Shown piece by piece: positions 23,543-41,007 of a stretch of DNA of 64,000 nucleotides. The notes under the pieces were generated by a model that was not told the DNA's origin, searched no databases, and saw only the letters and a program-made list of their open reading frames with translations. How positions within the stretch are numbered: the stretch's first letter is position 1; the number at the start of each line of letters is the position of its first letter. The translations under genes were made by a program, and so were the position numbers. The stretch spans positions 2,068,092 through 2,132,091 of the forward strand of contig CP070812.1 in NCBI GenBank assembly GCA_020344015.1, read 5' to 3'. Source of the DNA: Gemmatimonadota bacterium. GTDB lineage: Bacteria; Gemmatimonadota; Gemmatimonadetes; Palauibacterales; KS3-K002.

Positions 23543-23633
23543 GGCGAATCAGTGTATCCGCTAGTCTCGTCTGCGGCAGCGCGGTATGTTGAAGCAACCC
23601 TATCCTGCGATGAAATGTGATAGGAGGTGCGCT

Positions 23634-24233
23634 GTGAGACTGAACGCTCCCCTCAGGATCGCGCCGACCGTGGCGCTGCTGGTGTTCCTCCTTGCCCCGC
23701 CAGGACTGTTCGCCCAGAGCGCGCGGTTCGAGCAGTTCGCCGAGACCAAGCCGACGGCAGGTGAGATCGCTCCCGACTTCACGCTGGAGACTTTGGACGG
23801 CGAAGGTTTCACTCTCAGTGAGGTCTACGCCGAGCAACCCGTCGTAATCGAGTTCGGCTCGTACACTTGACCCCCATTCCGTCGGCGGTCCGCCGACGTC
23901 GAGAAGATACGTGAGGAGTTCGAGAGCCAAGTCAAGTTCATTATCCTCTATCAACGTGAAGCGCACGCCGGCCAGATGATGTTCAGCGAGATCGAGCAGC
24001 CCGAGACGTACGAGCAACGCAAGGCACTGGCCGAGAAGACGTGCGATGAGCTTCATATCGCGACGACCGTCGTGATCGACGACATGGAGAACACGGTTCG
24101 CGAGGCTTACGGTGGATTGCCGAACAGCGCGTACATCATCGACAGGGGAGGGGTGATCGTTCACAAGGAGGCCTGGGCGCGACCGACTGAGTGGCCGGAC
24201 GTGCTTCGCGGTCTAGTGGAGGAAGAGAGCTAG
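23634..24233 (+). CDS. Iodothyronine-deiodinase-like thioredoxin-fold selenoprotein (in-frame UGA = Sec at 23868-23870), secreted
   Basis: 'AGGAGG' RBS 5 nt before the GTG at 23634. Signal peptide (…LFAQS). 'PVVIEFGSYT-U-PPF…FIILYQREAH' matches the deiodinase 'PLVLNFGSCTUPPF…FLIIYIEEAH' motifs. The two ORF-track pieces (23586-23870 and 23976-24233) are in the same frame and are joined by a single TGA. SECIS-like hairpin directly downstream. Confidence 0.75.
23880..23898 (+). promoter_or_regulatory. Bacterial SECIS-like hairpin starting 10 nt 3' of the UGA
   Basis: cgtcggc-GGUCC-gccgacg. 7-bp perfect GC-rich stem with a G/U-containing apical loop, positioned like the fdhF SECIS relative to the UGA. 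Confidence 0.55.
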
Positions 24234-32089: not shown

Positions 32090-34747
32090 CTATAGCGACT
32101 CGAAGCGTCCCTGGAAGAAGCGCAACTTCGATGGCTCGTAGACGAACTTGAGTCCCTTGATCTCCTCTCTGCGGTCGTAAACGCGTCGGATCCCTTCCGC
32201 CACCGCCTTCATGTGATCGTTGGTGTAGACGCGACGCGGGATGGTAAGCCGCACCAGCTCGAGCGCCGGCCGGTAGTTGGCGCCGGTTTCGGGATTGCGG
32301 CCCTTCGACACGTTGCCGCGCTCCATCGCCCGCACCCCGGTCTCGACGTAGATCTCCGCCGCCAGCCGCTGGGCGGGGAACTCGTCCTGGTCGATCTGGG
32401 GCAGGAAACGCTTTGCGTCGAGGAAGATGGCGTGGCTGCCCGGGGGCGTGACGATGGGGATGCCCAGCTCGAGCAGCAGCTCGCCGAGATACTGGGTCTG
32501 CTCGACGCGTGAGCGGATGTAGCGGTCGTCGACCATCTCTTCTATCCCGCGTGCGATGGCCGCCAGGTCGGCGGTGGATAGGCCGCCGTCGGAGATGTTG
32601 CCCTCGTAGATGCGGAGCAGCTCGTGGGCCTTCTGGGCCAGGTCCGCGTTTTCCCGGAAACAAAGCACACCGCCGATGTTGATCAGGAAATCCTTCTTGC
32701 CGCTGACCGTGCAGCCGTCGCCGTAGAGCATCATCTCGCGGATGATGTCCTTTACCTTGGTCTTGTGGTAGCGGGCATCACGGCTCTGGATCATGTAGGC
32801 GTTTTCGGCGAAGCGGGTAGCGTCGAAGAACACCGGGATGCCCACCGCACTGCAGTACTCGTAGACTTCCTTCATGTTGTCCATGCTGGCCGGCTGACCG
32901 CCGGCCATGTTGACAGAATGCTCGAACGAGAGGTAGGCGATCTTCTGGGCGCCGTGCTCGTCGACCAGCGCTCTGAGCTTGTCGAGGTCGATGTTCCCCT
33001 TCCATTGGAACTCGCTCTCCGGGTTGTGCGCATCGTCGACGATGACGTCGACGAAGACGCCGCCGGCCATCTCCTGGTGCAGCTTGGTGGTCGTGAAGTA
33101 CATGTTGCCCGGCACCAGCTGGCCGTCCTTGATGCAGATCTGGCTGAGGATGTGCTCGGCGGCCCGTCCCTGGTGCGTGGGAATGATGTGATCGTAGCCG
33201 GTAACGTCCTGGAGGACCTCGACCAGGCGGCGGTACTCAGCGCTCATGGTCGTGCTGGCGCGCACGCCCTCGTAGGCGGCCCACTGGTCGGTGCTCATCG
33301 CCGATGTGCCCGAGTCGGTGAGCAGGTCGATGGCGACGTCGGCCGAGCGCAGCAGGAACGTGTTGTACCCGGCGGCGCGGATCGCCTTCTCGCGGTGGCC
33401 GCGGGTGAGTGCACCCACCTTCTCGATCGTGTGGATCGTGTAAGGGAAGGTGTCGAAGGAGAAGGGCTCGAGTGTGGGATAGACCCAGGTGTACTGCATC
33501 TGGTCGCGCCAGCTGCCGATGACCGACGCCTGTAGCCCGGTCACTTTATCGCGCTGTGCGAAGAGGCTGATGATGGCGTCGGCCACCTGATCAAGCTGAT
33601 CGGTGGTCATCGCCTGACGCGGGAGCTGCACCGGCAGCAAGTTGTCGCGACCAACCAGCCCCTGCGCGGTAGCTCGCACACCCGACATCAGGTAGAGGGC
33701 GGCTGACAACGTGTCCTGCTGGTGGACTTTCACGTGGGGCAGGAATTCGTCGGCCATGATGTAGGCGCCGTCGCAGCCGCGCTCGAGCGGCACGCCGCCG
33801 TCTCGCAGCCGCTGCGTGAAGCGCTCGGTCTGATACATGTCCCAGTGCACCTCGTCCTCGTCGCACATCTCCATGATGCCGCGGGCGAGGACCTCCATCG
33901 TGCGGCCGGCCATGCCGCCGTAGGTGTGCAGGCCCTCGAAGACGACGACCTCGTTCATGAATTTCTCGTGGTCGTCGGGGTTGTCGGTGACGAGGATGCC
34001 GCCGGTGTTGCACTTGGGATCCTGGGCGCCGTCCATCAAGAAGATGTGGCAGGTCTTGGCTATCTGTTTCACGAGGTCGGCGATCGAGCGGTCGGCCTGA
34101 CCCGGCTCGTGCTGCTGGATGTACCAGGCGTTCTCGATGACGCGCGAGCCGTCGCAGATCAACCGCTTGCCGTACTTATCTGCCAGAGCTCGGACGCCGC
34201 GCAGGTTCTCGAGGCTGAACGGGTGCTGCCCGTCGGCGAAGGCCTGGATGCCGACGAACGCCACGCTATGTGCCTTGAGGGTCTGTTCCAGCTTACCCAG
34301 GTCCATGTCGCCGGTGAAGACGGGCTGCTCGCGGTCCCGCGTGTCGGGGTACTGGATGCCTAGAGGATCCAAAACATCCAGTTTGGTGCGGGCGTTGCTC
34401 GGCACGACAGATCCAAGCGGCACCATGGTCGTAACGATCAGCTTGACCGAGCCCAGGTTGTTGTGTGTGGGACATACGTAGGTGTGACCGAGAACCTCGC
34501 GGACCGCCGTCTCGAGCGCCTCGAAGTTCCGGGAACCGGCGTAGGCCTCGTCGCCGATGAACTGGCCGGCCAGCTGTTCCTGGCTGAGTGCATTGGTACC
34601 CAGCGAGCACATGTCGAACGTGACCTGCCCGGGCGTCAGGTTCCAGACGTTGAAGTCGGCTTCGGCAAGGTATTTCTTTCGCTCGTCGAGCTTTGGCCAG
34701 GACAAGAGGCGGACGGTCTTGATCTTGTGCGGTTCGTGATTCGCCAT
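32090..34747 (-). CDS. Tandem-fused beta-eliminating lyase (tryptophanase/tyrosine phenol-lyase family), 885 aa
   Basis: The C-terminal half (aa ~430-885) aligns along its full length with TnaA/Tpl ('FLLRSADVAIDLLTDSGT', 'IPTHQGRAAE', 'NMAGGQP', 'VSGKKDFLINIGGVLC', 'RLTIPRRVYT'). The N-terminal half is a diverged second copy ('CPTHNNLGS', 'MDGAQDPKCNTGGIL') in which the PLP-Lys position appears substituted. Confidence 0.75.
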   Translation of the reverse strand: MANHEPHKIKTVRLLSWPKLDERKKYLAEADFNVWNLTPGQVTFDMCSLGTNALSQEQLAGQFIGDEAYAGSRNFEALETAVREVLGHTYVCPTHNNLGSVKLIVTTMVPLGSVVPSNARTKLDVLDPLGIQYPDTRDREQPVFTGDMDLGKLEQTLKAHSVAFVGIQAFADGQHPFSLENLRGVRALADKYGKRLICDGSRVIENAWYIQQHEPGQADRSIADLVKQIAKTCHIFLMDGAQDPKCNTGGILVTDNPDDHEKFMNEVVVFEGLHTYGGMAGRTMEVLARGIMEMCDEDEVHWDMYQTERFTQRLRDGGVPLERGCDGAYIMADEFLPHVKVHQQDTLSAALYLMSGVRATAQGLVGRDNLLPVQLPRQAMTTDQLDQVADAIISLFAQRDKVTGLQASVIGSWRDQMQYTWVYPTLEPFSFDTFPYTIHTIEKVGALTRGHREKAIRAAGYNTFLLRSADVAIDLLTDSGTSAMSTDQWAAYEGVRASTTMSAEYRRLVEVLQDVTGYDHIIPTHQGRAAEHILSQICIKDGQLVPGNMYFTTTKLHQEMAGGVFVDVIVDDAHNPESEFQWKGNIDLDKLRALVDEHGAQKIAYLSFEHSVNMAGGQPASMDNMKEVYEYCSAVGIPVFFDATRFAENAYMIQSRDARYHKTKVKDIIREMMLYGDGCTVSGKKDFLINIGGVLCFRENADLAQKAHELLRIYEGNISDGGLSTADLAAIARGIEEMVDDRYIRSRVEQTQYLGELLLELGIPIVTPPGSHAIFLDAKRFLPQIDQDEFPAQRLAAEIYVETGVRAMERGNVSKGRNPETGANYRPALELVRLTIPRRVYTNDHMKAVAEGIRRVYDRREEIKGLKFVYEPSKLRFFQGRFESL

Positions 34748-34968: not shown

Positions 34969-36207
34969 ATGCAGCAGTCACTGACTATGGGTGGGAACAC
35001 TCTTCCGCGGTTTCTCAGCTTCTTATCCGGCATTGGCATGGCGGTCTTCTCGATAATGACGATCGACCACTATTATTCCGCCAACTATCCGGAGTCGATC
35101 TTCGAGGGCTCGTTCTGCGATATAAGCGCTTTCTTCAACTGTGACAGCTCGGCCTACGCGGCAATTTCTGCGATCGGAGGTGTGCCGCTCGGCTACTTCG
35201 GCCTGGTCGTCGGAGCGCTGGTGGCACTGGGCGTGGTTCTGCCGTCGCTGAGCTTCGAGAGAACGAACAAGGCGATCTCGCTGCTCAACGCGGTCGGCGT
35301 TGTCGCCCTCTTCATCTATACGGTCTTCTTCCTGGGCAGCCTTTGCCTGCTATGCACTGGATTCTACGTGTTCTCCCTAGTCAGCTTCTTCCTGTTCTGG
35401 AAGCACGGTGTCGACAGAGAGTTGGGATTCCTGGCCGACTGGTTCCGACCGTCGGTCAAGTTACTGGCGACGTTCGCCGCGCTGGGTCTGTTCGGGGCCT
35501 ACGCCTTCACGTTCTACACCGATGCGAGGCAACTCGCACAGTCGGGCGGGGTGGCGACGCGGGCCGTAAAGGAGTTCTACAATCTGGAGCCAGTGGAATG
35601 GCCGAGCTTCATCTCGCCGCTCTGGACGGCGCAGTCGACCGAGCACTTCGAGGACGCACCGATCCGGATCGTGGAATACGGGGATCTGCTCTGCTCCGAT
35701 TGTCTGATACTGTATAGGCAACTGAACGAGCTGAAAGCCGAGTTCGAGGGGAAGATCAACATCGCCTTCCAAATGTTCCCGCTCGAGGCCCAGTGCAACG
35801 ACGTTGTGGAGAAGGACCTGCACCCCGGCGCCTGCGATGTGTCGTACATGGCGGCGTACGATCCGGACAAGTTCGTGGCGATCCACGATGAGATCTTCGA
35901 GAACCTCCGGCTGGCGAAGCGGCAGGCGGAATGGCGGGCCGATCTGGCCCGGCGTTTCGACGTGGAGGCAGCGCTCACCGACTCGGCGACCATCGCTCTG
36001 GTCGACCGCATGATCCAGACCGGCCGCGAATACGAGAAGACGCACGAGCGCTTCTCGTATGGCATCAGGTCAACGCCGACGATGATCGTCAACAACCGGA
36101 TGATCATCGGAACGCTGCCGATCGAGCAGTTGCGCGCCGTATTCCAGGCGCTGGTCGATGAGCACGAGTCCGGCGAGCGTCGGTTTATCGAGAACTGGGA
36201 AGAGTAG
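34969..36207 (+). CDS. Vitamin K epoxide reductase (VKOR)-DsbA/thioredoxin-like fusion protein
   Basis: N-terminal five-TM VKOR domain with 'CDISAFFNC' loop cysteines and 'CLLC' in a TM helix. C-terminal thioredoxin-fold domain with 'CSDC'. Confidence 0.75.
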   Translation: MQQSLTMGGNTLPRFLSFLSGIGMAVFSIMTIDHYYSANYPESIFEGSFCDISAFFNCDSSAYAAISAIGGVPLGYFGLVVGALVALGVVLPSLSFERTNKAISLLNAVGVVALFIYTVFFLGSLCLLCTGFYVFSLVSFFLFWKHGVDRELGFLADWFRPSVKLLATFAALGLFGAYAFTFYTDARQLAQSGGVATRAVKEFYNLEPVEWPSFISPLWTAQSTEHFEDAPIRIVEYGDLLCSDCLILYRQLNELKAEFEGKINIAFQMFPLEAQCNDVVEKDLHPGACDVSYMAAYDPDKFVAIHDEIFENLRLAKRQAEWRADLARRFDVEAALTDSATIALVDRMIQTGREYEKTHERFSYGIRSTPTMIVNNRMIIGTLPIEQLRAVFQALVDEHESGERRFIENWEE

Positions 36208-36224
36208 GGCTAACGGAGGTGGGT

Positions 36225-36638
36225 ATGATCGACGGAGTTGGCGGCGCGTTTGTCTTTTCGAACGATGCGGGACGACTGGCCGACTGGTACTGCCACTACC
36301 TCGGGATGGAGTTCGAGGGATCGGGCGAGGCCTTTTACATAATGTACTGGGGGCTCGACCCGGAAGATCACTCGCGGAAGCTCGATACCACGTTCTCGAT
36401 TATGCAGGCGAAGGTGGAACTGCCGCAGCGCGGCGACGGCAGCGAACCGGATGACATGTACGGCGACCAGCCGTTCATGGTGAACCTGCGGGTGCGTGAC
36501 ATAGATGCGGTCCTGGAGCATCTGGCGAAAAACGGTGTCGAGCCGATAAAGCGGGAAGAGTACGATTACGGTCGCTTCGCCTGGATCCGCGATCTGGATG
36601 GTAACCGCGTAGAGCTGTACCAGCCGCTGCACAGTTGA
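36225..36638 (+). CDS. VOC-family (glyoxalase) protein
   Basis: 'GAFVFSNDAGRLADWY' and 'MVNLRVRDIDAVLEHL' VOC motifs. Confidence 0.7.
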   Translation: MIDGVGGAFVFSNDAGRLADWYCHYLGMEFEGSGEAFYIMYWGLDPEDHSRKLDTTFSIMQAKVELPQRGDGSEPDDMYGDQPFMVNLRVRDIDAVLEHLAKNGVEPIKREEYDYGRFAWIRDLDGNRVELYQPLHS

Positions 36639-38035
36639 TGATGCCGGACTGGGCCCTCGCCGTACTCGATCCCCTCGCGGTCGCGGTCGGCCTGGGTTTC
36701 TTCATGGCTCTGGCCTATGCTGGGCTGGTCTCGGCGCGTGAGAAAGAGCCACGCGCCGTCTTCGTCTCGTCGTTGCTCGCCGTGATCCTTTCGGCTCCAT
36801 ATCTGTTGCTGGGACTCTCCGATCTGGAAGGAAGGTCGGGCGTCAGTGTAGGGCTCCTGCTGTTGACCGGCGCGGCCGGGCTGGCGCTGGTAATCCCATC
36901 GGGAAAGAAGCGCATCACCGAGGACGACACGCCGAGGGGCCGAATCGACGAGCGTGACATCATGTTCTCGAGGAACTTGTTGGAGCCGGGCACAGCGCGG
37001 TTCGAGGAGTACTACGCGGCCAATCCAGAGAAGCGGGCGGTGGACGATGCGTTCAGAGCGCTGCCGGGCCTCTTGGCGGAAGGGTCGACTATGTACGACC
37101 CGTACGCCTACGCGGCCGCCGGAGCGACGGAGGCGACGGTCGAGTATCTGAGGCCGCTGGTGGAGGGAGGGGTCGCGACCGAGCCTACCGTTACCGATCC
37201 GGTGGAGATCATGGGGTTCATCAAAGGCTGGACGCTCAAGCAGGGGGCCATATCGGTCGGTGTGACGGAGCTCAGGGATTACCACACGTACAGCACGGTG
37301 GGGCGCGGAGATGATTACGGCCGGCCGGTCGAGCTGGATCACGACTACGCCATTGCGTTCACGACCGAGATGTCGAGAGAGATGGTTGCCGGCGCGCCCA
37401 AAGCCTCCATCGTGATGGAGTCGTACCAACAGTACCTGGCCACGGGCGCCATTGCGATACAGTTGGCGAAGCTGATCCGCGGCTTGGGCTACTCCGCCAG
37501 GGCGCACGTGGATGGCAACTATCGTGTCGTGTGCCCGCTGGTTGCCCGGGACGCCGGTCTGGGCGAGATCGGTCGCATGGGCCTGCTGATGACTCCGGAG
37601 CTGGGCCCGCGTGTGCGGCTCGCCGTTGTCACCACCGAGATGCCGTTGGTGGCCGACGAGCGAAGCTTGGACTACACGATGATCGACTTCTGCGCGCGCT
37701 GTAAGAAATGCGCGGAGATTTGCCCCGCCCAAGCGATCCCGTCAGGTGATCGCGAGATGATCGACGGGGTACGTCGCTGGCAGATCGATCAGGAGGCCTG
37801 CTTCACTCTGTGGTGCCAGATCGGTACGGACTGCGGCCGTTGCGTCTCCGTGTGTCCCTACTCACACCCGAACAACCTGCTTCACAACCTGGTCCGGCTG
37901 GGAGTGCGCAACTCGTCTCTGTTCCGCAGGCTGGCGATAAAGGCGGATGACCTGTTCTACGGGAAGCGACCGCCAAGCGCGGAGCTGCCGGATTGGATGC
38001 GGATGAACCCGATCGCCGAGGATTCGTCTAGTTAG
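36635..38035 (+). CDS. Reductive-dehalogenase/QueG-superfamily Fe-S protein with N-terminal three-helix membrane anchor
   Basis: 'ARDAGLGEIGRMGLLMTPELGPRVRLAVVTTEMPL' is the RdhA/QueG conserved core. Two ferredoxin-type clusters 'CARCKKCAEICP' and 'CFTLWCQIGTDCGRCVSVCP'. Three N-terminal TM helices. No Tat signal. Confidence 0.7.
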   Translation: MMMPDWALAVLDPLAVAVGLGFFMALAYAGLVSAREKEPRAVFVSSLLAVILSAPYLLLGLSDLEGRSGVSVGLLLLTGAAGLALVIPSGKKRITEDDTPRGRIDERDIMFSRNLLEPGTARFEEYYAANPEKRAVDDAFRALPGLLAEGSTMYDPYAYAAAGATEATVEYLRPLVEGGVATEPTVTDPVEIMGFIKGWTLKQGAISVGVTELRDYHTYSTVGRGDDYGRPVELDHDYAIAFTTEMSREMVAGAPKASIVMESYQQYLATGAIAIQLAKLIRGLGYSARAHVDGNYRVVCPLVARDAGLGEIGRMGLLMTPELGPRVRLAVVTTEMPLVADERSLDYTMIDFCARCKKCAEICPAQAIPSGDREMIDGVRRWQIDQEACFTLWCQIGTDCGRCVSVCPYSHPNNLLHNLVRLGVRNSSLFRRLAIKADDLFYGKRPPSAELPDWMRMNPIAEDSSS

Positions 38036-39494
38036 GTCTCCACTCGGGGTTCGGCGTCGGCATCCGGGCGCCGACGCTCCGACGCCAATCCTCGAGAATC
38101 TCGTGCAGCTCGGCGGTCAGCTCGGGCCTCTCCCCGGCCAGATCCCGCGACTCGCCGATATCAGCGCTCAAGTCGTAGAGTTCGATCTTACCATCCTCGA
38201 ACCACTCGAAAAGTTTGTAGTCGCCGATCCGCGCGGCGCCCGACGGCCTGTTGCCCGAGCCGTGGTAGTGGGGGAAGTGGAAAAACAGCCGCTGACGATC
38301 AAGCGCACCCGTGCCGAGCATAGGATGTACGAGGCTCAGCCCGTCGGTATGCTGGTCCGGCTGAGCCGGCAGTCCGGCGATCTCCAGCAGAGTCGGGTAG
38401 AGGTCCATAGTGATCGCCGGTTGGTCGATCACGCGCCCGTCCTCGACAGCGCCGGGCCATTTGATGATCAGCGGCACGCGGACGCCACCCTCGTAAAGCC
38501 AGCCCTTCCCGGCCCGCAGCGGCAGAACCGCCGTGGGTATACCGCGGCTTCGCCTGAGCGTGCTCAGGCCGCCATTGTCCGAGACGAAGACCACGACCGT
38601 GCGGTCGGCGAGCTCCAGACTGTCGAGCAGCGCGAGAACCCGGCCGACGCTCTGGTCGGTACTCTCGATCATGCCCGCGTATACGGCGTGGTCCTGACGC
38701 TGTTTTGTAATCGCGTTCGTTCCCTCCGGGAGAAACGCTGGCGCGTCTGTGGCGGCCAGGCCCTGCGCTTTGGACTCGTACTTTGCGGTAAGCTCCGCCT
38801 TAGACTGCAGCGGTGTGTGTACGGCGTAATGCGAGAAGACGAGGAAGAACGTGGTATCGCTCTGCGCCTCGATGAACTGCAGCGCCGCGTCGGTGAGGCG
38901 ATCGGTCAGGTAGTCGCCCTCCTCGCCGTCCTCGAGGTCCGGAACGTTCGTCACCGGCCAGTTCGGGTTCTCGTAGGGATAGAAGTACGAGCCGGGCTGG
39001 CCCGCGTGGTTTACGGCGAAGGAGTAGTCGAACCCCTGGTCCGGCGGCAGGAATCCTTCTGCGCCGAGGTGCCACTTGCCGATGTACCCCGTGGCGTAGC
39101 CGGCCTCCTTGAACGCTTCGCCGAGCGTTATCTCCTCCAGCGGCAACTGTCGCAGGTACTCGGCCTGAATCAGCATGGCACGACCTTCGCCGCCGATCCA
39201 GTTGGTGATGTGGAGGCGCGCCGGGTCCTTGCCGGTCATTATGCTCGCTCGGGTCGGCGAGCATACCGGACTGGCCGAGTAGAACTGGGTGAAGCGGGCG
39301 CCCTCGCGGGCCAGGCGATCGATGTTCGGTGTCTCGTAGAACGTACTGCCATAGACGCCGGTGTCGACCCAGCCGAGGTCATCTATAAGAAAGAACACGA
39401 AGTTGGGGTGTTCGGCAATCGGGCGGTTGCATCCCCAAGCGCACGCGAGGAAGACCAGCGTGAGACGCATCCAGTAGCGGCAGCGGCTTCTCAA
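38028..39494 (-). CDS. Arylsulfatase-family sulfatase (formylglycine-dependent), secreted
   Basis: 'CSPTRASIMTG' C-x-P-x-R motif, 'GKWHLG' and 'DNGG' sulfatase motifs. Signal peptide. Confidence 0.8.
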   Translation of the reverse strand: MRSRCRYWMRLTLVFLACAWGCNRPIAEHPNFVFFLIDDLGWVDTGVYGSTFYETPNIDRLAREGARFTQFYSASPVCSPTRASIMTGKDPARLHITNWIGGEGRAMLIQAEYLRQLPLEEITLGEAFKEAGYATGYIGKWHLGAEGFLPPDQGFDYSFAVNHAGQPGSYFYPYENPNWPVTNVPDLEDGEEGDYLTDRLTDAALQFIEAQSDTTFFLVFSHYAVHTPLQSKAELTAKYESKAQGLAATDAPAFLPEGTNAITKQRQDHAVYAGMIESTDQSVGRVLALLDSLELADRTVVVFVSDNGGLSTLRRSRGIPTAVLPLRAGKGWLYEGGVRVPLIIKWPGAVEDGRVIDQPAITMDLYPTLLEIAGLPAQPDQHTDGLSLVHPMLGTGALDRQRLFFHFPHYHGSGNRPSGAARIGDYKLFEWFEDGKIELYDLSADIGESRDLAGERPELTAELHEILEDWRRSVGARMPTPNPEWRPN

Positions 39495-39584: not shown

Positions 39585-40355
39585 CTACTCTTTTTTGGAC
39601 GAGTGGATCGCGAAGGCCGCTCCCTGCGGATCCATGCACTGCGCGATCCAGTCGCCGCCGGGCACCTCCATCGGTTCGACGAGCACCTGGCCGCCCAATT
39701 CCTTGACCTTCTCGGCGGAGGCATGCACGTCGGCAACCGTAGTGTAAAACAGCCAGAACGGCGGTCCGGGTATCTCTGCCGGCTTGTTGAACATACCGCC
39801 CAGCGTCGTGCCGCTCACACCGTACATCTGATAGATGCCCATATCGCCCATGTCGCTGGCGTCTGTCTTCTCCCAGCCGAAGAGTTCGCCGTAGAAGTTG
39901 AGGGCTGCTTCGTAGTCCGAGGTCGCCAGCTCGTGCCATGAGAACTCGCCTACCTGCGGCGGTCCCTCCTTGGCCGGCGTTTCCTCCTTGGATGTGAAGA
40001 CGGCGAACACCGCGCCCTGTGGGTCGGCCAGCACGGCAAAACTGCCGACCGTCGGGATCGTGACGGGACCATGCAGCACCCGGCCGCCAAGTTCCGTCGC
40101 CTTCTTCGCAACCGCCTCTGTGTCGGCCACATCGACGTAGGCCAGCCAATGAGACGGCGCACCCGCGGCCCTGGCGTCTTGCGGCAGGTCCATGACGCCG
40201 CCGATCGGCGTCTCGCGATTAGTCCACAAAGTGTAGGGCGCGGGTCCACCCTCCCAAGGGGCAGTGCCCCAGCCGATCAGCTCTGAATAGAAGGTTTTCG
40301 CGGCCTGGGGGTCCGAGGTCATCAGGTCGTACCAGACGAATCGTCCGCGGGGCAC
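39585..40355 (-). CDS. Two-domain VOC-family (glyoxalase-like) protein
   Basis: Two repeats of 'F.WYDL.TSD…A..FY..L.GW' VOC modules. 'AAGGAGGA' RBS before the ATG (complement of 40353-40355). The ORF-track upstream extension is low-complexity. Confidence 0.7.
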   Translation of the reverse strand: MPRGRFVWYDLMTSDPQAAKTFYSELIGWGTAPWEGGPAPYTLWTNRETPIGGVMDLPQDARAAGAPSHWLAYVDVADTEAVAKKATELGGRVLHGPVTIPTVGSFAVLADPQGAVFAVFTSKEETPAKEGPPQVGEFSWHELATSDYEAALNFYGELFGWEKTDASDMGDMGIYQMYGVSGTTLGGMFNKPAEIPGPPFWLFYTTVADVHASAEKVKELGGQVLVEPMEVPGGDWIAQCMDPQGAAFAIHSSKKE

Positions 40356-40470
40356 ATCGGACATGGGGTCCTCCTTACTTGCTAGCGCGTCACGCGCGCG
40401 ACTGCGGTCATCGACGAGGAAAGCCCCAATATGGACCTCTCGGAGTGCTGAGTCTAGGTTGTGCTGACGT

Positions 40471-41007
40471 ATGGCTGCGCGACCCAACTTGAGGATCATT
40501 CCGGAGCCGCCCGCCGCGACGCTCGTCTTCGTGGTCGAGGCGCGAGTGATCGAAGACGATACGCACATGGTACTCGGCGCCGATCCGGTGCCACGCGAAA
40601 CGCATGAGGAACCGGAGCAGCTGCTGGAGAATGCAAGGGCGAGCATTGGGCCGGCACCAGGCACGCTGGTTGTACGAGGCGGTCACCCCATCCGCCTGCA
40701 CGCCATCGTCCACGACCTGGATGGTGAGCCGTCGTGGAGAGAGGAGTGGGTGGCGAGCGCGCTACGCGAGGTTCTTCGGGAGGTAGAGGCCAGAGAGCTG
40801 CGCTCGCTGTCGCTGCCGCTCCTGGGGTGTGTTCACGGGCCGCTGGCGCCCGACCGCTTCGCCGAATTGTTGAGAGACGCTCTGACGGAAGCGAATGTTG
40901 AGCCTCTGGAGGAAGTGTGGGTGACCGTGCCGCCCGAAATCGCCGCCGAGATGGCGACTCGGTTTCGGGCGTTCGGGATGGAAGTCACGGAGAGAGGACA
41001 AGAGTGA
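40471..41007 (+). CDS. Hypothetical protein (possibly macro-domain-like)
   Basis: 178 aa. 'LRSLSLPLLGCVHGPLAPDRFAELL' weakly resembles the macro-domain 'SIAFPAISTGIYGYP' strand-loop. Confidence 0.4.
   Translation: MAARPNLRIIPEPPAATLVFVVEARVIEDDTHMVLGADPVPRETHEEPEQLLENARASIGPAPGTLVVRGGHPIRLHAIVHDLDGEPSWREEWVASALREVLREVEARELRSLSLPLLGCVHGPLAPDRFAELLRDALTEANVEPLEEVWVTVPPEIAAEMATRFRAFGMEVTERGQE

What the first reader, a model, noticed from the sequence alone, without database searches (positions are those of the whole stretch)
36635..38035. Membrane-anchored reductive-dehalogenase/QueG-superfamily enzyme next to a VKOR-DsbA fusion and overlapping a sulfatase gene
The 466-aa protein carries the RdhA/QueG conserved core (AGLGEIGRMGLLMTPELGPRVRLAVVTTEMPL) and two C-terminal Fe-S motifs. 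In place of a Tat signal it has three N-terminal TM helices. It is longer than QueG, which is about 350-400 aa and soluble. This type of non-respiratory, membrane-tethered RdhA homologue is poorly understood. It lies 12 kb from the Sec-deiodinase-like gene, which points to the same chemistry (reductive carbon-halogen cleavage), and next to a disulfide-generating VKOR-DsbA module (34969-36207). Its 3' end overlaps the convergent arylsulfatase gene by 8 bp. Together these suggest a halogenated/sulfated-aromatic processing neighbourhood.
Basis: partly seen in the sequence, partly recalled or inferred. Interest (0 to 1): 0.6.

Follow-up and report, generated by a model that had tools for sequence, protein, structure and literature searches.

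The report
Membrane-anchored reductive dehalogenase homologue, known class
This gene encodes a vitamin-B12/iron-sulfur enzyme of the reductive-dehalogenase family that is fused to its own three-helix membrane anchor; it belongs to a widespread class already described from genomes, but nobody has yet shown what that class does.

Summary
It is an RdhA-family protein and not QueG: RDH model 154.9 bits against QueG 38 bits, and the best structures are DhPceA, SmPceA and NpRdhA. It has three N-terminal TM helices, no Tat signal and two complete Fe-S motifs.

It is not new. It belongs to the "hybrid RdhA-RdhB" or "transmembrane respiratory RdhA" class (Atashgahi 2019; Han 2025), is 52-53% identical to the listed Marinifilum breve protein, and carries the class's EXE motif (E36-K-E38).

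This analysis adds four points:
- The catalytic Tyr and Arg (Y267, R328) are essentially invariant.
- The menaquinone-pocket residues of DhPceA (H495, R499, D515) are conserved as H417, R421 and D438, and they tend to be lost in TM-less relatives.
- Charge bias places the catalytic domain in the cytoplasm in 77 of 77 sequences.
- The family is unusually conserved (50-60% identity across phyla) and has no conserved partner gene.

The neighbourhood of VKOR-DsbA, VOC, sulfatase, tyrosine phenol-lyase and the DIO-like selenoprotein occurs only in one Gemmatimonadota lineage and is functionally mixed. It does not establish a halo-aromatic pathway.

The most likely mechanism is a single-polypeptide, quinol-driven, cytoplasm-facing cobamide reductase. 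The substrate is unknown.

The parts
36635..38035 (+). TM-RdhA gene ('hybrid' or 'transmembrane' reductive dehalogenase homologue). The longest ORF is 466 aa from TTG; the likely start is ATG 36638 or 36641.
36647..36892 (+). N-terminal membrane module: three TM helices (residues 5-35, 39-61, 67-86). Predicted topology is N-terminus outside and C-terminus inside.
   Evidence: hydropathy; AlphaFold DSSP; positive-inside bias in 77 of 77 sequences
36740..36748 (+). EXE motif (E36-K37-E38) in the cytoplasmic TM1-TM2 loop. E38 is invariant and E36 is at least 90% conserved in close homologues.
   Evidence: motif defined in PMC6797604
36941..36973 (+). Family-specific juxtamembrane motif R-I-D-E-R-D-I-M-F-S-R (residues 103-113), nearly invariant. 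It marks the start of the soluble domain.
37433..37435 (+). Codon for Y267. It aligns with the catalytic Tyr of NpRdhA (Y426), SmPceA (Y246) and DhPceA (Y337).
   Evidence: alignments; invariant; 74 of 75 and 27 of 27
37553..37648 (+). Conserved RdhA core AGLGEIGRMGLLMTPELGPRVRLAVVTTEMPL (residues 307-338). It includes R328, which aligns with SmPceA R305, DhPceA R396 and NpRdhA K488.
37691..37726 (+). Fe-S motif 1: CxxCxxCxxxCP (C353, C356, C359, C363, P364)
37799..37858 (+). Fe-S motif 2: C389 ... C400xxC403xxxC407-P408
37865..37963 (+). C-terminal helices (415-426 and 428-442) carrying H411, H417, R421, D438 and Y442. These align with the menaquinone-pocket residues K489, H495, R499, D515 and (one position off) Y520 of DhPceA helices alpha17 and alpha18.
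   Evidence: alignment, counted against PMC10624902 numbering; conservation; DSSP
36219..36638 (+). VOC/glyoxalase-fold gene (139 aa) immediately upstream. Its stop codon overlaps the RdhA start, so the two are probably translationally coupled. It is present in only some close relatives.
34969..36207 (+). VKOR-DsbA/thioredoxin fusion, probably the first gene of the same transcription unit (11-nt gap to the VOC gene). It is linked to the RdhA only in the closest Gemmatimonadota lineage. Lineage-specific context, not a family feature.
38028..39494 (-). Cys-type sulfatase with a signal or lipoprotein leader. It is convergent and overlaps the RdhA 3' end by 8 bp. Context only.
32090..34747 (-). 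Tandem (885-aa) tyrosine phenol-lyase, transcribed divergently from the VKOR-VOC-RdhA unit. Context only.
23610..24233 (+). Deiodinase-like selenoprotein ORF (TGA at 23868-23870), 12.4 kb upstream. Context only; no functional link has been shown.

Best explanation
The gene encodes a member of the already described 'hybrid RdhA-RdhB' or 'transmembrane RdhA' class. This is a single polypeptide in which a three-helix membrane module carrying an EXE loop is fused to a cobamide- and 2x[4Fe-4S]-type reductive-dehalogenase domain.

The catalytic domain stays in the cytoplasm, tethered to the inner face of the membrane. The most likely mechanism runs as follows:
1. Quinol from the membrane pool binds in a pocket formed by the two C-terminal amphipathic helices (H411, H417, R421, D438, Y442) and the EXE-bearing TM hairpin, as in the PceA2B2 menaquinol:organohalide oxidoreductase.
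2. Electrons pass through the distal and proximal Fe-S clusters to the corrinoid.
3. Co(I) then reductively removes a halogen (or a comparable leaving group) from a substrate. Y267 acts as proton donor, positioned by R328.

Basis for each step:
- Shown: family membership, architecture, conserved residues, and fold.
- Inferred: topology, corrinoid binding, and quinol as the electron donor.
- Unknown: the substrate.

Because the quinol site and the active site would both face the cytoplasm, the enzyme itself should be electroneutral. It is as likely to serve detoxification, scavenging or electron disposal as classical organohalide respiration.
For: - Family: TIGR02486 RDH scores E 4e-45 (154.9 bits) and QueG only 38 bits.
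- Sequence matches to structures: NpRdhA 1.9e-44, SmPceA 1e-33, DhPceA 4e-26.
- Model: AlphaFold pLDDT 85, pTM 0.83. The Foldseek top hit is the membrane-bound DhPceA 8q4h_A at 8e-15; QueG reaches only about 1e-3.
- Conserved residues: all 8 cluster Cys, Y267 and R328 are invariant in 77 homologues.
- Quinone pocket: Y267/R328 and H417/R421/D438/H411 align residue for residue with DhPceA Y337/R396 and H495/R499/D515/K489 (residue roles from PMC10624902).
- Co-variation with the anchor: in 150 divergent representatives, TM-bearing proteins keep H417 in 68 of 75 and R421 in 59 of 75. TM-less relatives keep them in 15 of 27 and 9 of 27, while both groups keep the catalytic Tyr.
- Topology: K/R bias is cytoplasmic in 77 of 77 sequences, there is no Tat motif in the window protein, and no conserved His or Cys in the TM helices.
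- Class identity: 52-53% identity to Marinifilum breve, which is in Table 1 of PMC6797604. The EXE motif is present.
Against: - No member of this class has been assayed, so dehalogenation, corrinoid content and quinol dependence are all inferences.
- The protein scores just below the curated RDH cutoff (154.9 against 160.35) and below the PF13486 cutoff.
- The N-terminal module shows no significant sequence homology to PceB (hhalign probability 1.5%; no PDB hit).
- NpRdhA R552 is not conserved (Thr here).
- Very high cross-phylum conservation and the absence of rdh accessory genes or regulators are unlike known organohalide-respiration loci.
- The Fisher tests treat sequences as independent, and the TM-less set contains gene fragments.
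Confidence: 0.55

Rival explanations
1. The family is not a dehalogenase in vivo. Instead it is a conserved 'housekeeping' cobamide/Fe-S reductase acting on one common, possibly membrane-associated or endogenous, non-xenobiotic substrate. This would parallel QueG, which reduces an epoxide.
For: - Identity is 50-60% between phyla, and even to a contig binned as archaeal. A near-invariant family-specific motif, RIDERDIMFSR, is present.
- The gene stands alone, with unrelated neighbours in 10 lineages and no rdhB/C/K/T genes.
- At least 563 species-representative genomes carry it, and there are 396 50%-identity clusters at E<=1e-30.
- Hosts include fermenters not known to respire organohalides (PMC6797604).
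Against: - The catalytic Tyr/Arg dyad typical of dehalogenases is invariant.
- Several MAGs carry two paralogues only 55-57% identical, which suggests substrate diversification.
- No candidate substrate emerges from the gene context.
Confidence: 0.22
2. The RdhA is one step of a dedicated halogenated/sulfated-aromatic pathway (for example halotyrosine) together with the tyrosine phenol-lyase, sulfatase, VOC proteins, VKOR-DsbA and the DIO-like selenoprotein.
For: - In the closest Gemmatimonadota lineage these genes remain clustered despite local rearrangements. In L012 the order is DIO-like, TPL, VKOR-DsbA, a 140-aa ORF, RdhA. In L021 it is TPL, VOC, sulfatase, VKOR-DsbA, RdhA.
- VKOR-DsbA, VOC and RdhA are packed as an apparent operon.
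- A tandem-VOC gene is near the RdhA in 13 Gemmatimonadota loci, in varying positions.
- A Planctomycetota homologue sits beside an aromatic ammonia-lyase and BCR/HGD-type genes.
- NpRdhA, an ortho-bromophenol dehalogenase, is the best sequence hit.
Against: - The association is confined to one lineage in which the whole region is syntenic, so it is not independent evidence.
- The block is interspersed with unrelated genes.
- VOC and sulfatase are each absent in some close relatives.
- The DIO-like gene was seen in only 2 of the fetched loci.
- There is no such context in about 65 other loci.
- The sulfatase and the DsbA domain act outside the cytoplasm, whereas the RdhA domain is inside.
Confidence: 0.1
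3. It is a genuine respiratory terminal reductase that supports growth by organohalide respiration, as the literature label 'transmembrane respiratory RdhA' implies.
For: - It has a membrane anchor and PceA-like quinone-pocket residues.
- Transcripts of this class have been detected in cold-seep sediments (PMC12219181).
Against: - The active site and the putative quinol site both face the cytoplasm, and there are no haem ligands in the TM helices. The enzyme therefore cannot itself form a redox loop.
- There are no accessory or regulatory rdh genes.
- No cultured carrier has been shown to respire organohalides.
Confidence: 0.1
4. It is epoxyqueuosine reductase QueG, a tRNA-modification enzyme.
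For: It shares the superfamily core and the Fe-S motifs. There is a weak QueG hit (38 bits; 5d6s 5e-5).
Against: - TIGR00276 scores 38 bits against a 200-bit cutoff, matching only about 80 residues.
- Foldseek to QueG gives E about 1e-3 and TMq 0.23, against 1e-14 for PceA.
- It has a membrane anchor, and there is no tRNA-modification context.
Confidence: 0.02

Closest known systems
Hybrid RdhA-RdhB / 'transmembrane respiratory' RdhA class (Jochum 2018; Atashgahi 2019, PMC6797604; Han et al. 2025, PMC12219181)
   Same: - No Tat signal, three N-terminal TM helices, and an EXE motif in a short loop.
- Two Fe-S motifs, a length of about 450-470 aa, and no adjacent rdhB.
- 52-53% identity to the listed Marinifilum breve protein.
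- The class is reported across 33 phyla.
   Different: Nothing essential; this is a Gemmatimonadota member of the class. Local peculiarities are the apparent operon with VKOR-DsbA and a VOC gene, and the convergent overlap with a sulfatase gene.
PceA2B2 menaquinol:organohalide oxidoreductase of Desulfitobacterium hafniense (PDB 8q4h; PMC10624902)
   Same: - It is the best structural match.
- The catalytic Tyr/Arg are conserved.
- C-terminal helices carry the same His/Arg/Asp quinone-pocket residues.
- An EXE-bearing TM hairpin lies on the same side of the membrane as the catalytic domain.
   Different: - One polypeptide here, against two subunits in PceA2B2.
- No Tat export, so the catalytic domain is cytoplasmic rather than on the P-side.
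- The EXE motif lies in the TM1-TM2 loop, not the TMH2-TMH3 loop. The anchor therefore cannot be a simple head-to-tail RdhB-RdhA fusion.
- There is no detectable sequence homology to PceB.
- Only about 19-25% identity.
Catabolic NpRdhA / BhbA-type reductive dehalogenases (PDB 4ras, 6zy1)
   Same: - It is the best sequence match (1.9e-44).
- Both are cytoplasmic and Tat-less.
- The catalytic Tyr is conserved.
   Different: - The window protein has no vestigial cobalamin-binding domain or fused NAD(P)H reductase domain.
- It is membrane-anchored.
- K488 is replaced by Arg, as in PceA.
- R552 is not conserved.
- It keeps quinone-pocket residues that NpRdhA lacks (R and E at the H417 and R421 positions).
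Epoxyqueuosine reductase QueG
   Same: It belongs to the same cobalamin/2x[4Fe-4S] superfamily core.
   Different: Similarity is very weak (38 bits; TM 0.23), the architecture differs, and there is no tRNA-modification context.

Membership tests
Hybrid / transmembrane RdhA class (Atashgahi 2019) | Absence of an N-terminal Tat (RRxFxK) signal | tested here: met
   There is no RR motif in residues 1-40 of the window protein. A loose RRxF pattern was found in only 6 of 77 homologues.
Hybrid / transmembrane RdhA class (Atashgahi 2019) | One to three (typically three) N-terminal transmembrane helices fused to the RdhA domain | tested here: met
   Three hydrophobic segments. AlphaFold places helices at 5-35, 39-61 and 67-86.
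Hybrid / transmembrane RdhA class (Atashgahi 2019) | EXE motif in a short inter-helix loop | tested here: met
   E36-K-E38 lies in the TM1-TM2 loop. E38 is invariant and E36 at least 90% conserved. Among divergent representatives, E36 is kept in 69 of 75 and E38 in 53 of 75.
Hybrid / transmembrane RdhA class (Atashgahi 2019) | No adjacent rdhB gene | tested here: met
   The neighbours are a VOC gene and a sulfatase gene. No small 3-TM gene is adjacent.
Hybrid / transmembrane RdhA class (Atashgahi 2019) | Sequence relationship to listed members | tested here: met
   52-53% identity to the Marinifilum breve locus L076. M. breve is in Table 1 of PMC6797604.
RdhA superfamily (reductive dehalogenase catalytic subunit) | Curated model score (TIGR02486 cutoff 160.35; PF13486 cutoff 24.3) | tested here: inconclusive
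   TIGR02486 scores 154.9 bits (E 4e-45), 5.5 bits below its cutoff, covering model positions 87-311 of 314. PF13486 scores 15.8 bits, below its cutoff.
RdhA superfamily (reductive dehalogenase catalytic subunit) | Two Fe-S binding motifs (CxxCxxCxxxCP and CxxCxxxCP plus a remote Cys) | tested here: met
   C353/356/359/363 and C389/400/403/407 are all invariant.
RdhA superfamily (reductive dehalogenase catalytic subunit) | Active-site Tyr plus Arg/Lys dyad | tested here: met
   Y267 and R328 align with SmPceA Y246/R305, DhPceA Y337/R396 and NpRdhA Y426/K488. Both are invariant.
RdhA superfamily (reductive dehalogenase catalytic subunit) | RdhA fold | tested here: met
   Foldseek gives 8q4h_A 8e-15, 4ur3 2e-14 and 6zy0 2e-12.
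RdhA superfamily (reductive dehalogenase catalytic subunit) | Bound corrinoid and reductive dehalogenation activity | not testable with these tools
   This needs biochemistry. No member of the TM class has been assayed.
Prototypical respiratory RdhAB | Tat signal, periplasmic location and a separate RdhB anchor | tested here: not met
   There is no Tat motif and no rdhB gene, and the charge bias puts the domain in the cytoplasm.
PceAB-type menaquinol:organohalide oxidoreductase (works-like comparison) | Quinone-pocket residues on the two C-terminal helices (K489, H495, R499, D515, Y520) | tested here: met
   H411, H417, R421 and D438 align exactly, and Y442 is one position off. They are conserved and depleted in TM-less relatives.
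PceAB-type menaquinol:organohalide oxidoreductase (works-like comparison) | Anchor homologous to PceB | tested here: inconclusive
   hhalign probability is 1.5%, with only the EXE loops aligned. There is no PDB hit for the N-terminus.
Catabolic NpRdhA/BhbA type | Soluble enzyme with a vestigial B12-binding domain and/or a fused NAD(P)H reductase; substrate-binding Arg552 | tested here: not met
   The protein is 466 aa with only Fer4 domains plus the TM module. The R552 position is Thr.
QueG (epoxyqueuosine reductase) | TIGR00276 equivalog score of at least 200, and the QueG fold | tested here: not met
   38.3 bits. Foldseek gives E about 1e-3 and TMq 0.23.

The most novel reading that the evidence does not exclude
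The whole TM-RdhA family, including this gene, may not be an organohalide-respiration enzyme. It could instead be a conserved, quinol-driven, cytoplasm-facing cobamide reductase with one common physiological substrate, present in hundreds of species across more than 30 phyla. That would make it a widespread B12 enzyme of unknown core function. In this Gemmatimonadota lineage it would be wired to a quinone-reducing VKOR-DsbA module in the same operon, so that periplasmic thiol oxidation feeds the quinol it consumes.
Probability: 0.15. Interest if true: 0.8.

Novelty: new member of a known kind. Interest (0 to 1): 0.35.

Why it matters
TM-RdhAs are reported as the most widespread RdhA class in marine sediments (PMC12219181), yet no member has a demonstrated activity, cofactor or electron donor.

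This locus does not change that. The analysis does sharpen what can be tested:
- The fused enzymes keep the PceA menaquinone-pocket residues, and these co-vary with the membrane anchor. That predicts direct quinol dependence.
- Their active site should face the cytoplasm, which argues against a simple 'respiratory' label.
- Their unusual conservation and stand-alone genomic context raise the possibility of a single conserved substrate.

If the enzyme is a dehalogenase, it would extend natural halogen cycling to Gemmatimonadota and many non-organohalide-respiring phyla.

Tried and rejected
- Exact-protein context look-up for the window protein found nothing on record. Homologues were used instead.
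- A PDB sequence search with the N-terminal 150 aa returned only chance hits.
- A profile comparison of the TM module with PceB was not significant. PceB was recalled from memory and verified as identical to 8q4h_C over residues 1-89. The 'RdhB fusion' idea therefore remains a topological analogy.
- The promoter/terminator scan of 34.6-39.7 kb found no more sites than shuffled controls.
- The Rfam scan and the tRNA scan of the window found no cobalamin riboswitch, SECIS family or tRNA-Sec.
- De novo clustering of about 1000 neighbouring ORFs from 80 loci found no family-wide partner. The top clusters were Ser/Thr kinases and ABC ATPases, which are background.
- Pfam annotation of the immediate neighbours in 10 other lineages gave unrelated functions.
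- Model coordinates were not exposed to the sandbox, so distances between the TM helices, C-terminal helices and clusters could not be measured.
- QueG identity was considered and rejected.
- A periplasmic orientation was considered, because TMHMM calls in PMC6797604 are mixed. It was rejected on uniform charge bias and the lack of a Tat signal.
Full report
**Observation**

The ORF 36635..38035 (+) is present as described: 466 aa from TTG. Its composition is coding-like, with GC3 0.81 against GC2 0.47. The sequence around the start reads ...CAC AGT TGA TG ATG CCG....
- The upstream VOC gene ends with TGA at 36636-36638, overlapping the ATG at 36638.
- The NCBI record for the identical protein (P0001, 'MAG: Gemmatimonadota bacterium', 4.8-Mb contig) is 465 aa. 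The nearest homologues are 464 aa and begin M-P/S-x-W.
- The real start is therefore ATG 36638 or 36641, and translation is probably coupled to the VOC gene.

Hydropathy shows exactly three hydrophobic segments, at about 6-32, 41-61 and 69-87. The Fe-S motifs are complete: C353/356/359/363-P and C389...C400/403/407-P. Three further details hold:
- The 8-bp convergent overlap with a sulfatase gene is correct.
- The VKOR-DsbA fusion at 34969-36207 is correct.
- The upstream deiodinase-like selenoprotein ORF is real: 23610..24233, TGA at 23868-70 within FGSYT-U-PPF, PF00837 6e-19.

One correction is needed. VKOR-DsbA is one gene removed from the RdhA, with a 139-aa VOC/glyoxalase-fold gene (36219..36638) in between.

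**What it is**

The protein is RdhA-family and not QueG.
- NCBIfam's RDH model TIGR02486 gives E 4e-45 (154.9 bits, just under the 160.35 cutoff). QueG TIGR00276 gives only 38 bits against a cutoff of 200.
- Pfam sees the Fer4 dicluster domain and a sub-threshold PF13486 match.
- Among solved structures the best sequence matches are NpRdhA (1.9e-44), S. multivorans PceA (1e-33) and D. hafniense PceA (4e-26). QueG is at 5e-5.
- An AlphaFold model built on 77 homologues is confident, with pLDDT 85.3 and pTM 0.83.
- Its best Foldseek hit is the membrane-bound DhPceA of the PceA2B2 complex (8q4h_A, 8e-15), followed by SmPceA and NpRdhA. QueG follows at E about 1e-3 and TM 0.23.

**Already known as a class**

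Atashgahi (2019, PMC6797604) described 'hybrid' putative RDases. They lack Tat and rdhB, carry three N-terminal TM helices with an EXE motif, and are about 450-490 aa. They occur in Marinilabiliales, Deltaproteobacteria, Caldithrix and many candidate phyla.

Han et al. (2025, PMC12219181) call them 'transmembrane respiratory RdhA'. They were the most widespread class in cold seeps (1963 sequences, 33 phyla).

The window protein has the EXE motif (E36-K-E38) in the TM1-TM2 loop. It is 52-53% identical to the Marinifilum breve locus (L076), and M. breve is in Atashgahi's Table 1.

No paper that I found reports an activity, a cofactor analysis or a phenotype for any member. The PceAB structure paper says explicitly that their function 'remains to be assessed'.

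**Family properties**

- Size: more than 4696 proteins match at E<=1e-5 in the word-indexed search.
- Hosts: Gemmatimonadota, Acidobacteriota, Anaerolineae, Latescibacterota, Bacteroidota, Chlorobiota, Ignavibacteria, KSB1, Calditrichota, Fibrobacterota, Akkermansiaceae, and one contig binned as Methanosarcinales.
- Conservation: identity stays at 50-60% across phyla. Paralogues within single MAGs are 55-57% identical.
- Invariant positions: the eight cluster cysteines, Y267, R326/R328, the AGLGE..GR.GLL..P..GPR core, and a family-specific juxtamembrane motif R-I-D-E-R-D-I-M-F-S-R at residues 103-113.

**Mechanistic inference**

I counted through the phmmer alignments and checked the numbering against the residue numbers in PMC10624902. 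The 8q4h chain numbering plus 48 gives the paper's numbering.
- Catalytic residues: Y267 aligns with DhPceA Y337, SmPceA Y246 and NpRdhA Y426. R328 aligns with DhPceA R396, SmPceA R305 and NpRdhA K488.
- Quinone pocket: the residues on PceA helices alpha17 and alpha18 also align. K489 corresponds to H411, H495 to H417, R499 to R421 and D515 to D438. Y520 is one position off, at Y442.
- These lie on model helices 415-426 and 428-442.
- NpRdhA, which is cytosolic and NADPH-dependent, has R and E at the H417 and R421 positions.

I then compared 150 divergent representatives.

| Residue | TM-bearing (n=75) | TM-less (n=27) | Fisher p |
|---|---|---|---|
| H417 | 68 | 15 | 2e-4 |
| R421 | 59 (plus 7 Lys) | 9 | 4e-5 |
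| D438 | 68 (plus 4 Glu) | 19 | 0.02 |
| Y442 | 72 | 19 | 9e-4 |
| Y267 (catalytic) | 74 | 27 | 1.0 |

The tests do not correct for shared ancestry, and some TM-less entries are gene fragments. With that caveat, the putative quinone-pocket residues track the membrane anchor while the catalytic residues do not. This supports direct quinol use, as in PceA2B2.

**Topology**

Every one of the 77 homologues has more Lys+Arg in the TM1-TM2 loop and the post-TM3 segment than in the N-terminus and the TM2-TM3 loop. This predicts that the N-terminus is outside and the catalytic domain is in the cytoplasm. The absence of a Tat signal is consistent, because a domain loaded with cofactors could not be exported without one. 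The mixed 'cytoplasmic/exoplasmic' TMHMM calls in PMC6797604 are therefore probably prediction noise. No His or Cys is conserved in the TM helices, so there is no haem-mediated transmembrane electron transfer. The quinol site and the active site should both lie at the cytoplasmic face, which makes the enzyme itself electroneutral.

**Relation to RdhB**

In the cryo-EM structure the PceB EXE residues (E61, E63) sit in the TMH2-TMH3 loop on the PceA side, and the PceB C-terminus is on the opposite side. In the fused proteins the EXE motif sits in the TM1-TM2 loop, on the same side as the catalytic domain.
- Relative to the catalytic domain, the fused TM1-EXE-TM2 hairpin therefore corresponds to PceB TMH2-EXE-TMH3, and TM3 is a connecting helix.
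- A plain head-to-tail RdhB-RdhA fusion would put the domain on the wrong side of the membrane. This is my inference.
- A profile of the N-terminal module against PceB aligns only these two loops (SAREKEPRA against SFSEREYQA), at 1.5% probability. The PceB sequence was verified against 8q4h_C.
- Homology is therefore not demonstrable.

**Neighbourhood**

In close Gemmatimonadota relatives (RdhA identity 62-91%) the region is syntenic: tandem TPL on the minus strand, then VKOR-DsbA, an optional VOC gene, RdhA, and an optional sulfatase.
- Some local rearrangements keep these genes near each other. In L021 the order is TPL, VOC, sulfatase, VKOR-DsbA, RdhA. In L012 it is DIO-like, TPL, VKOR-DsbA, a 140-aa ORF, RdhA.
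- The Sec codon of the DIO-like gene is conserved in L010 and L012.
- All of these loci belong to one lineage. The single 'Acidobacteriota' contig, L017, is 4 kb long and looks the same.
- The block also contains unrelated genes: creatininase, fucosidase, arginase, a SnoaL-like protein, a Ser/Thr kinase, FHA-SLT, a PhoD-like phosphatase, an amidohydrolase, a methyltransferase, DoxX and a flavin reductase.
- Outside that lineage, de novo clustering of neighbours found no partner in more than 16 of about 80 loci, and the top clusters are generic kinases and ABC ATPases.
- Immediate neighbours in ten other lineages are unrelated to one another and include no rdhB/C/K/T genes.
- A Planctomycetota homologue sits beside BCR/HGD-type genes and an aromatic ammonia-lyase.

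The 'halo/sulfo-aromatic neighbourhood' therefore remains an untested lineage-specific lead and is not established by these data.

**Verdict**

The identification as a membrane-tethered RdhA homologue is correct, but the class is already described, so this is a new member of a known kind.

The best-supported mechanism is a self-anchored, quinol-driven, cytoplasm-facing cobamide reductive dehalogenase of unknown substrate (confidence about 0.55). The main rival is a conserved non-xenobiotic reductase function (about 0.2). That rival is suggested by the unusual sequence conservation and the stand-alone genomic context.

Noticed in passing
window 32090-34747 (-): This is an 885-aa tandem-duplicated tyrosine phenol-lyase. 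The C-terminal half is a full TPL (TIGR02618, 865 bits) with the PLP motif SGKKD at residue 682. The N-terminal half is only about 25% identical and lacks the PLP lysine (it aligns as DGAQD), so it is probably a degenerate pseudo-enzyme domain. The 885-aa form is conserved in 8 related Gemmatimonadota loci.
   Followed up: partly
window 23610-24233 (+); also L010:1302-1868 and L012:4020-4634: This is a deiodinase-like (PF00837) secreted selenoprotein with an in-frame TGA in FGSYT-U-PPF. The Sec codon is conserved in two related genomes, and in L012 the gene lies directly next to the TPL gene. No SECIS family or tRNA-Sec was detected in the window.
   Followed up: partly
window 39585-40664 (-): A two-domain VOC/glyoxalase-fold protein (homologues are about 259 aa, so the real start is probably internal to this ORF) recurs near TM-RdhA in 13 Gemmatimonadota loci. 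Its distance and orientation vary, which makes it more widespread than the VKOR-DsbA linkage. Its function is unknown; there is a weak KbpA-like hit.
   Followed up: partly
L038, L055, L057, L059, L067 (immediately upstream of RdhA): In another Gemmatimonadota sub-clade an M3-family oligopeptidase gene ends 11-39 nt before the TM-RdhA start on the same strand. This is a different apparent operon partner.
   Followed up: no
representative proteins P0199, P0228, P0234, P0240, P0244, P0259: These relatives are about 345-360 aa and begin exactly at the RIDERDIMF motif, with no TM module. They have lost H417 and R421. They may be genuine cytosolic versions, or may partner with a separately encoded anchor. 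Some other TM-less hits are clearly gene fragments.
   Followed up: partly
L039 (JAIWHF010000239.1, 2.4-kb contig binned as Methanosarcinales): This TM-RdhA is 59% identical to the Gemmatimonadota proteins but sits in an archaeal bin. It could be horizontal transfer or mis-binning; the contig is too short to tell.
   Followed up: no
window 34969-36207 (+): The thioredoxin-like domain of the VKOR-DsbA fusion gives a weak hit to the Rcas_1661 family of thioredoxin-like (seleno)lipoproteins (NF041057, 38 bits, below cutoff). Here the redox motif is C-S-D-C, with no Sec.
   Followed up: no
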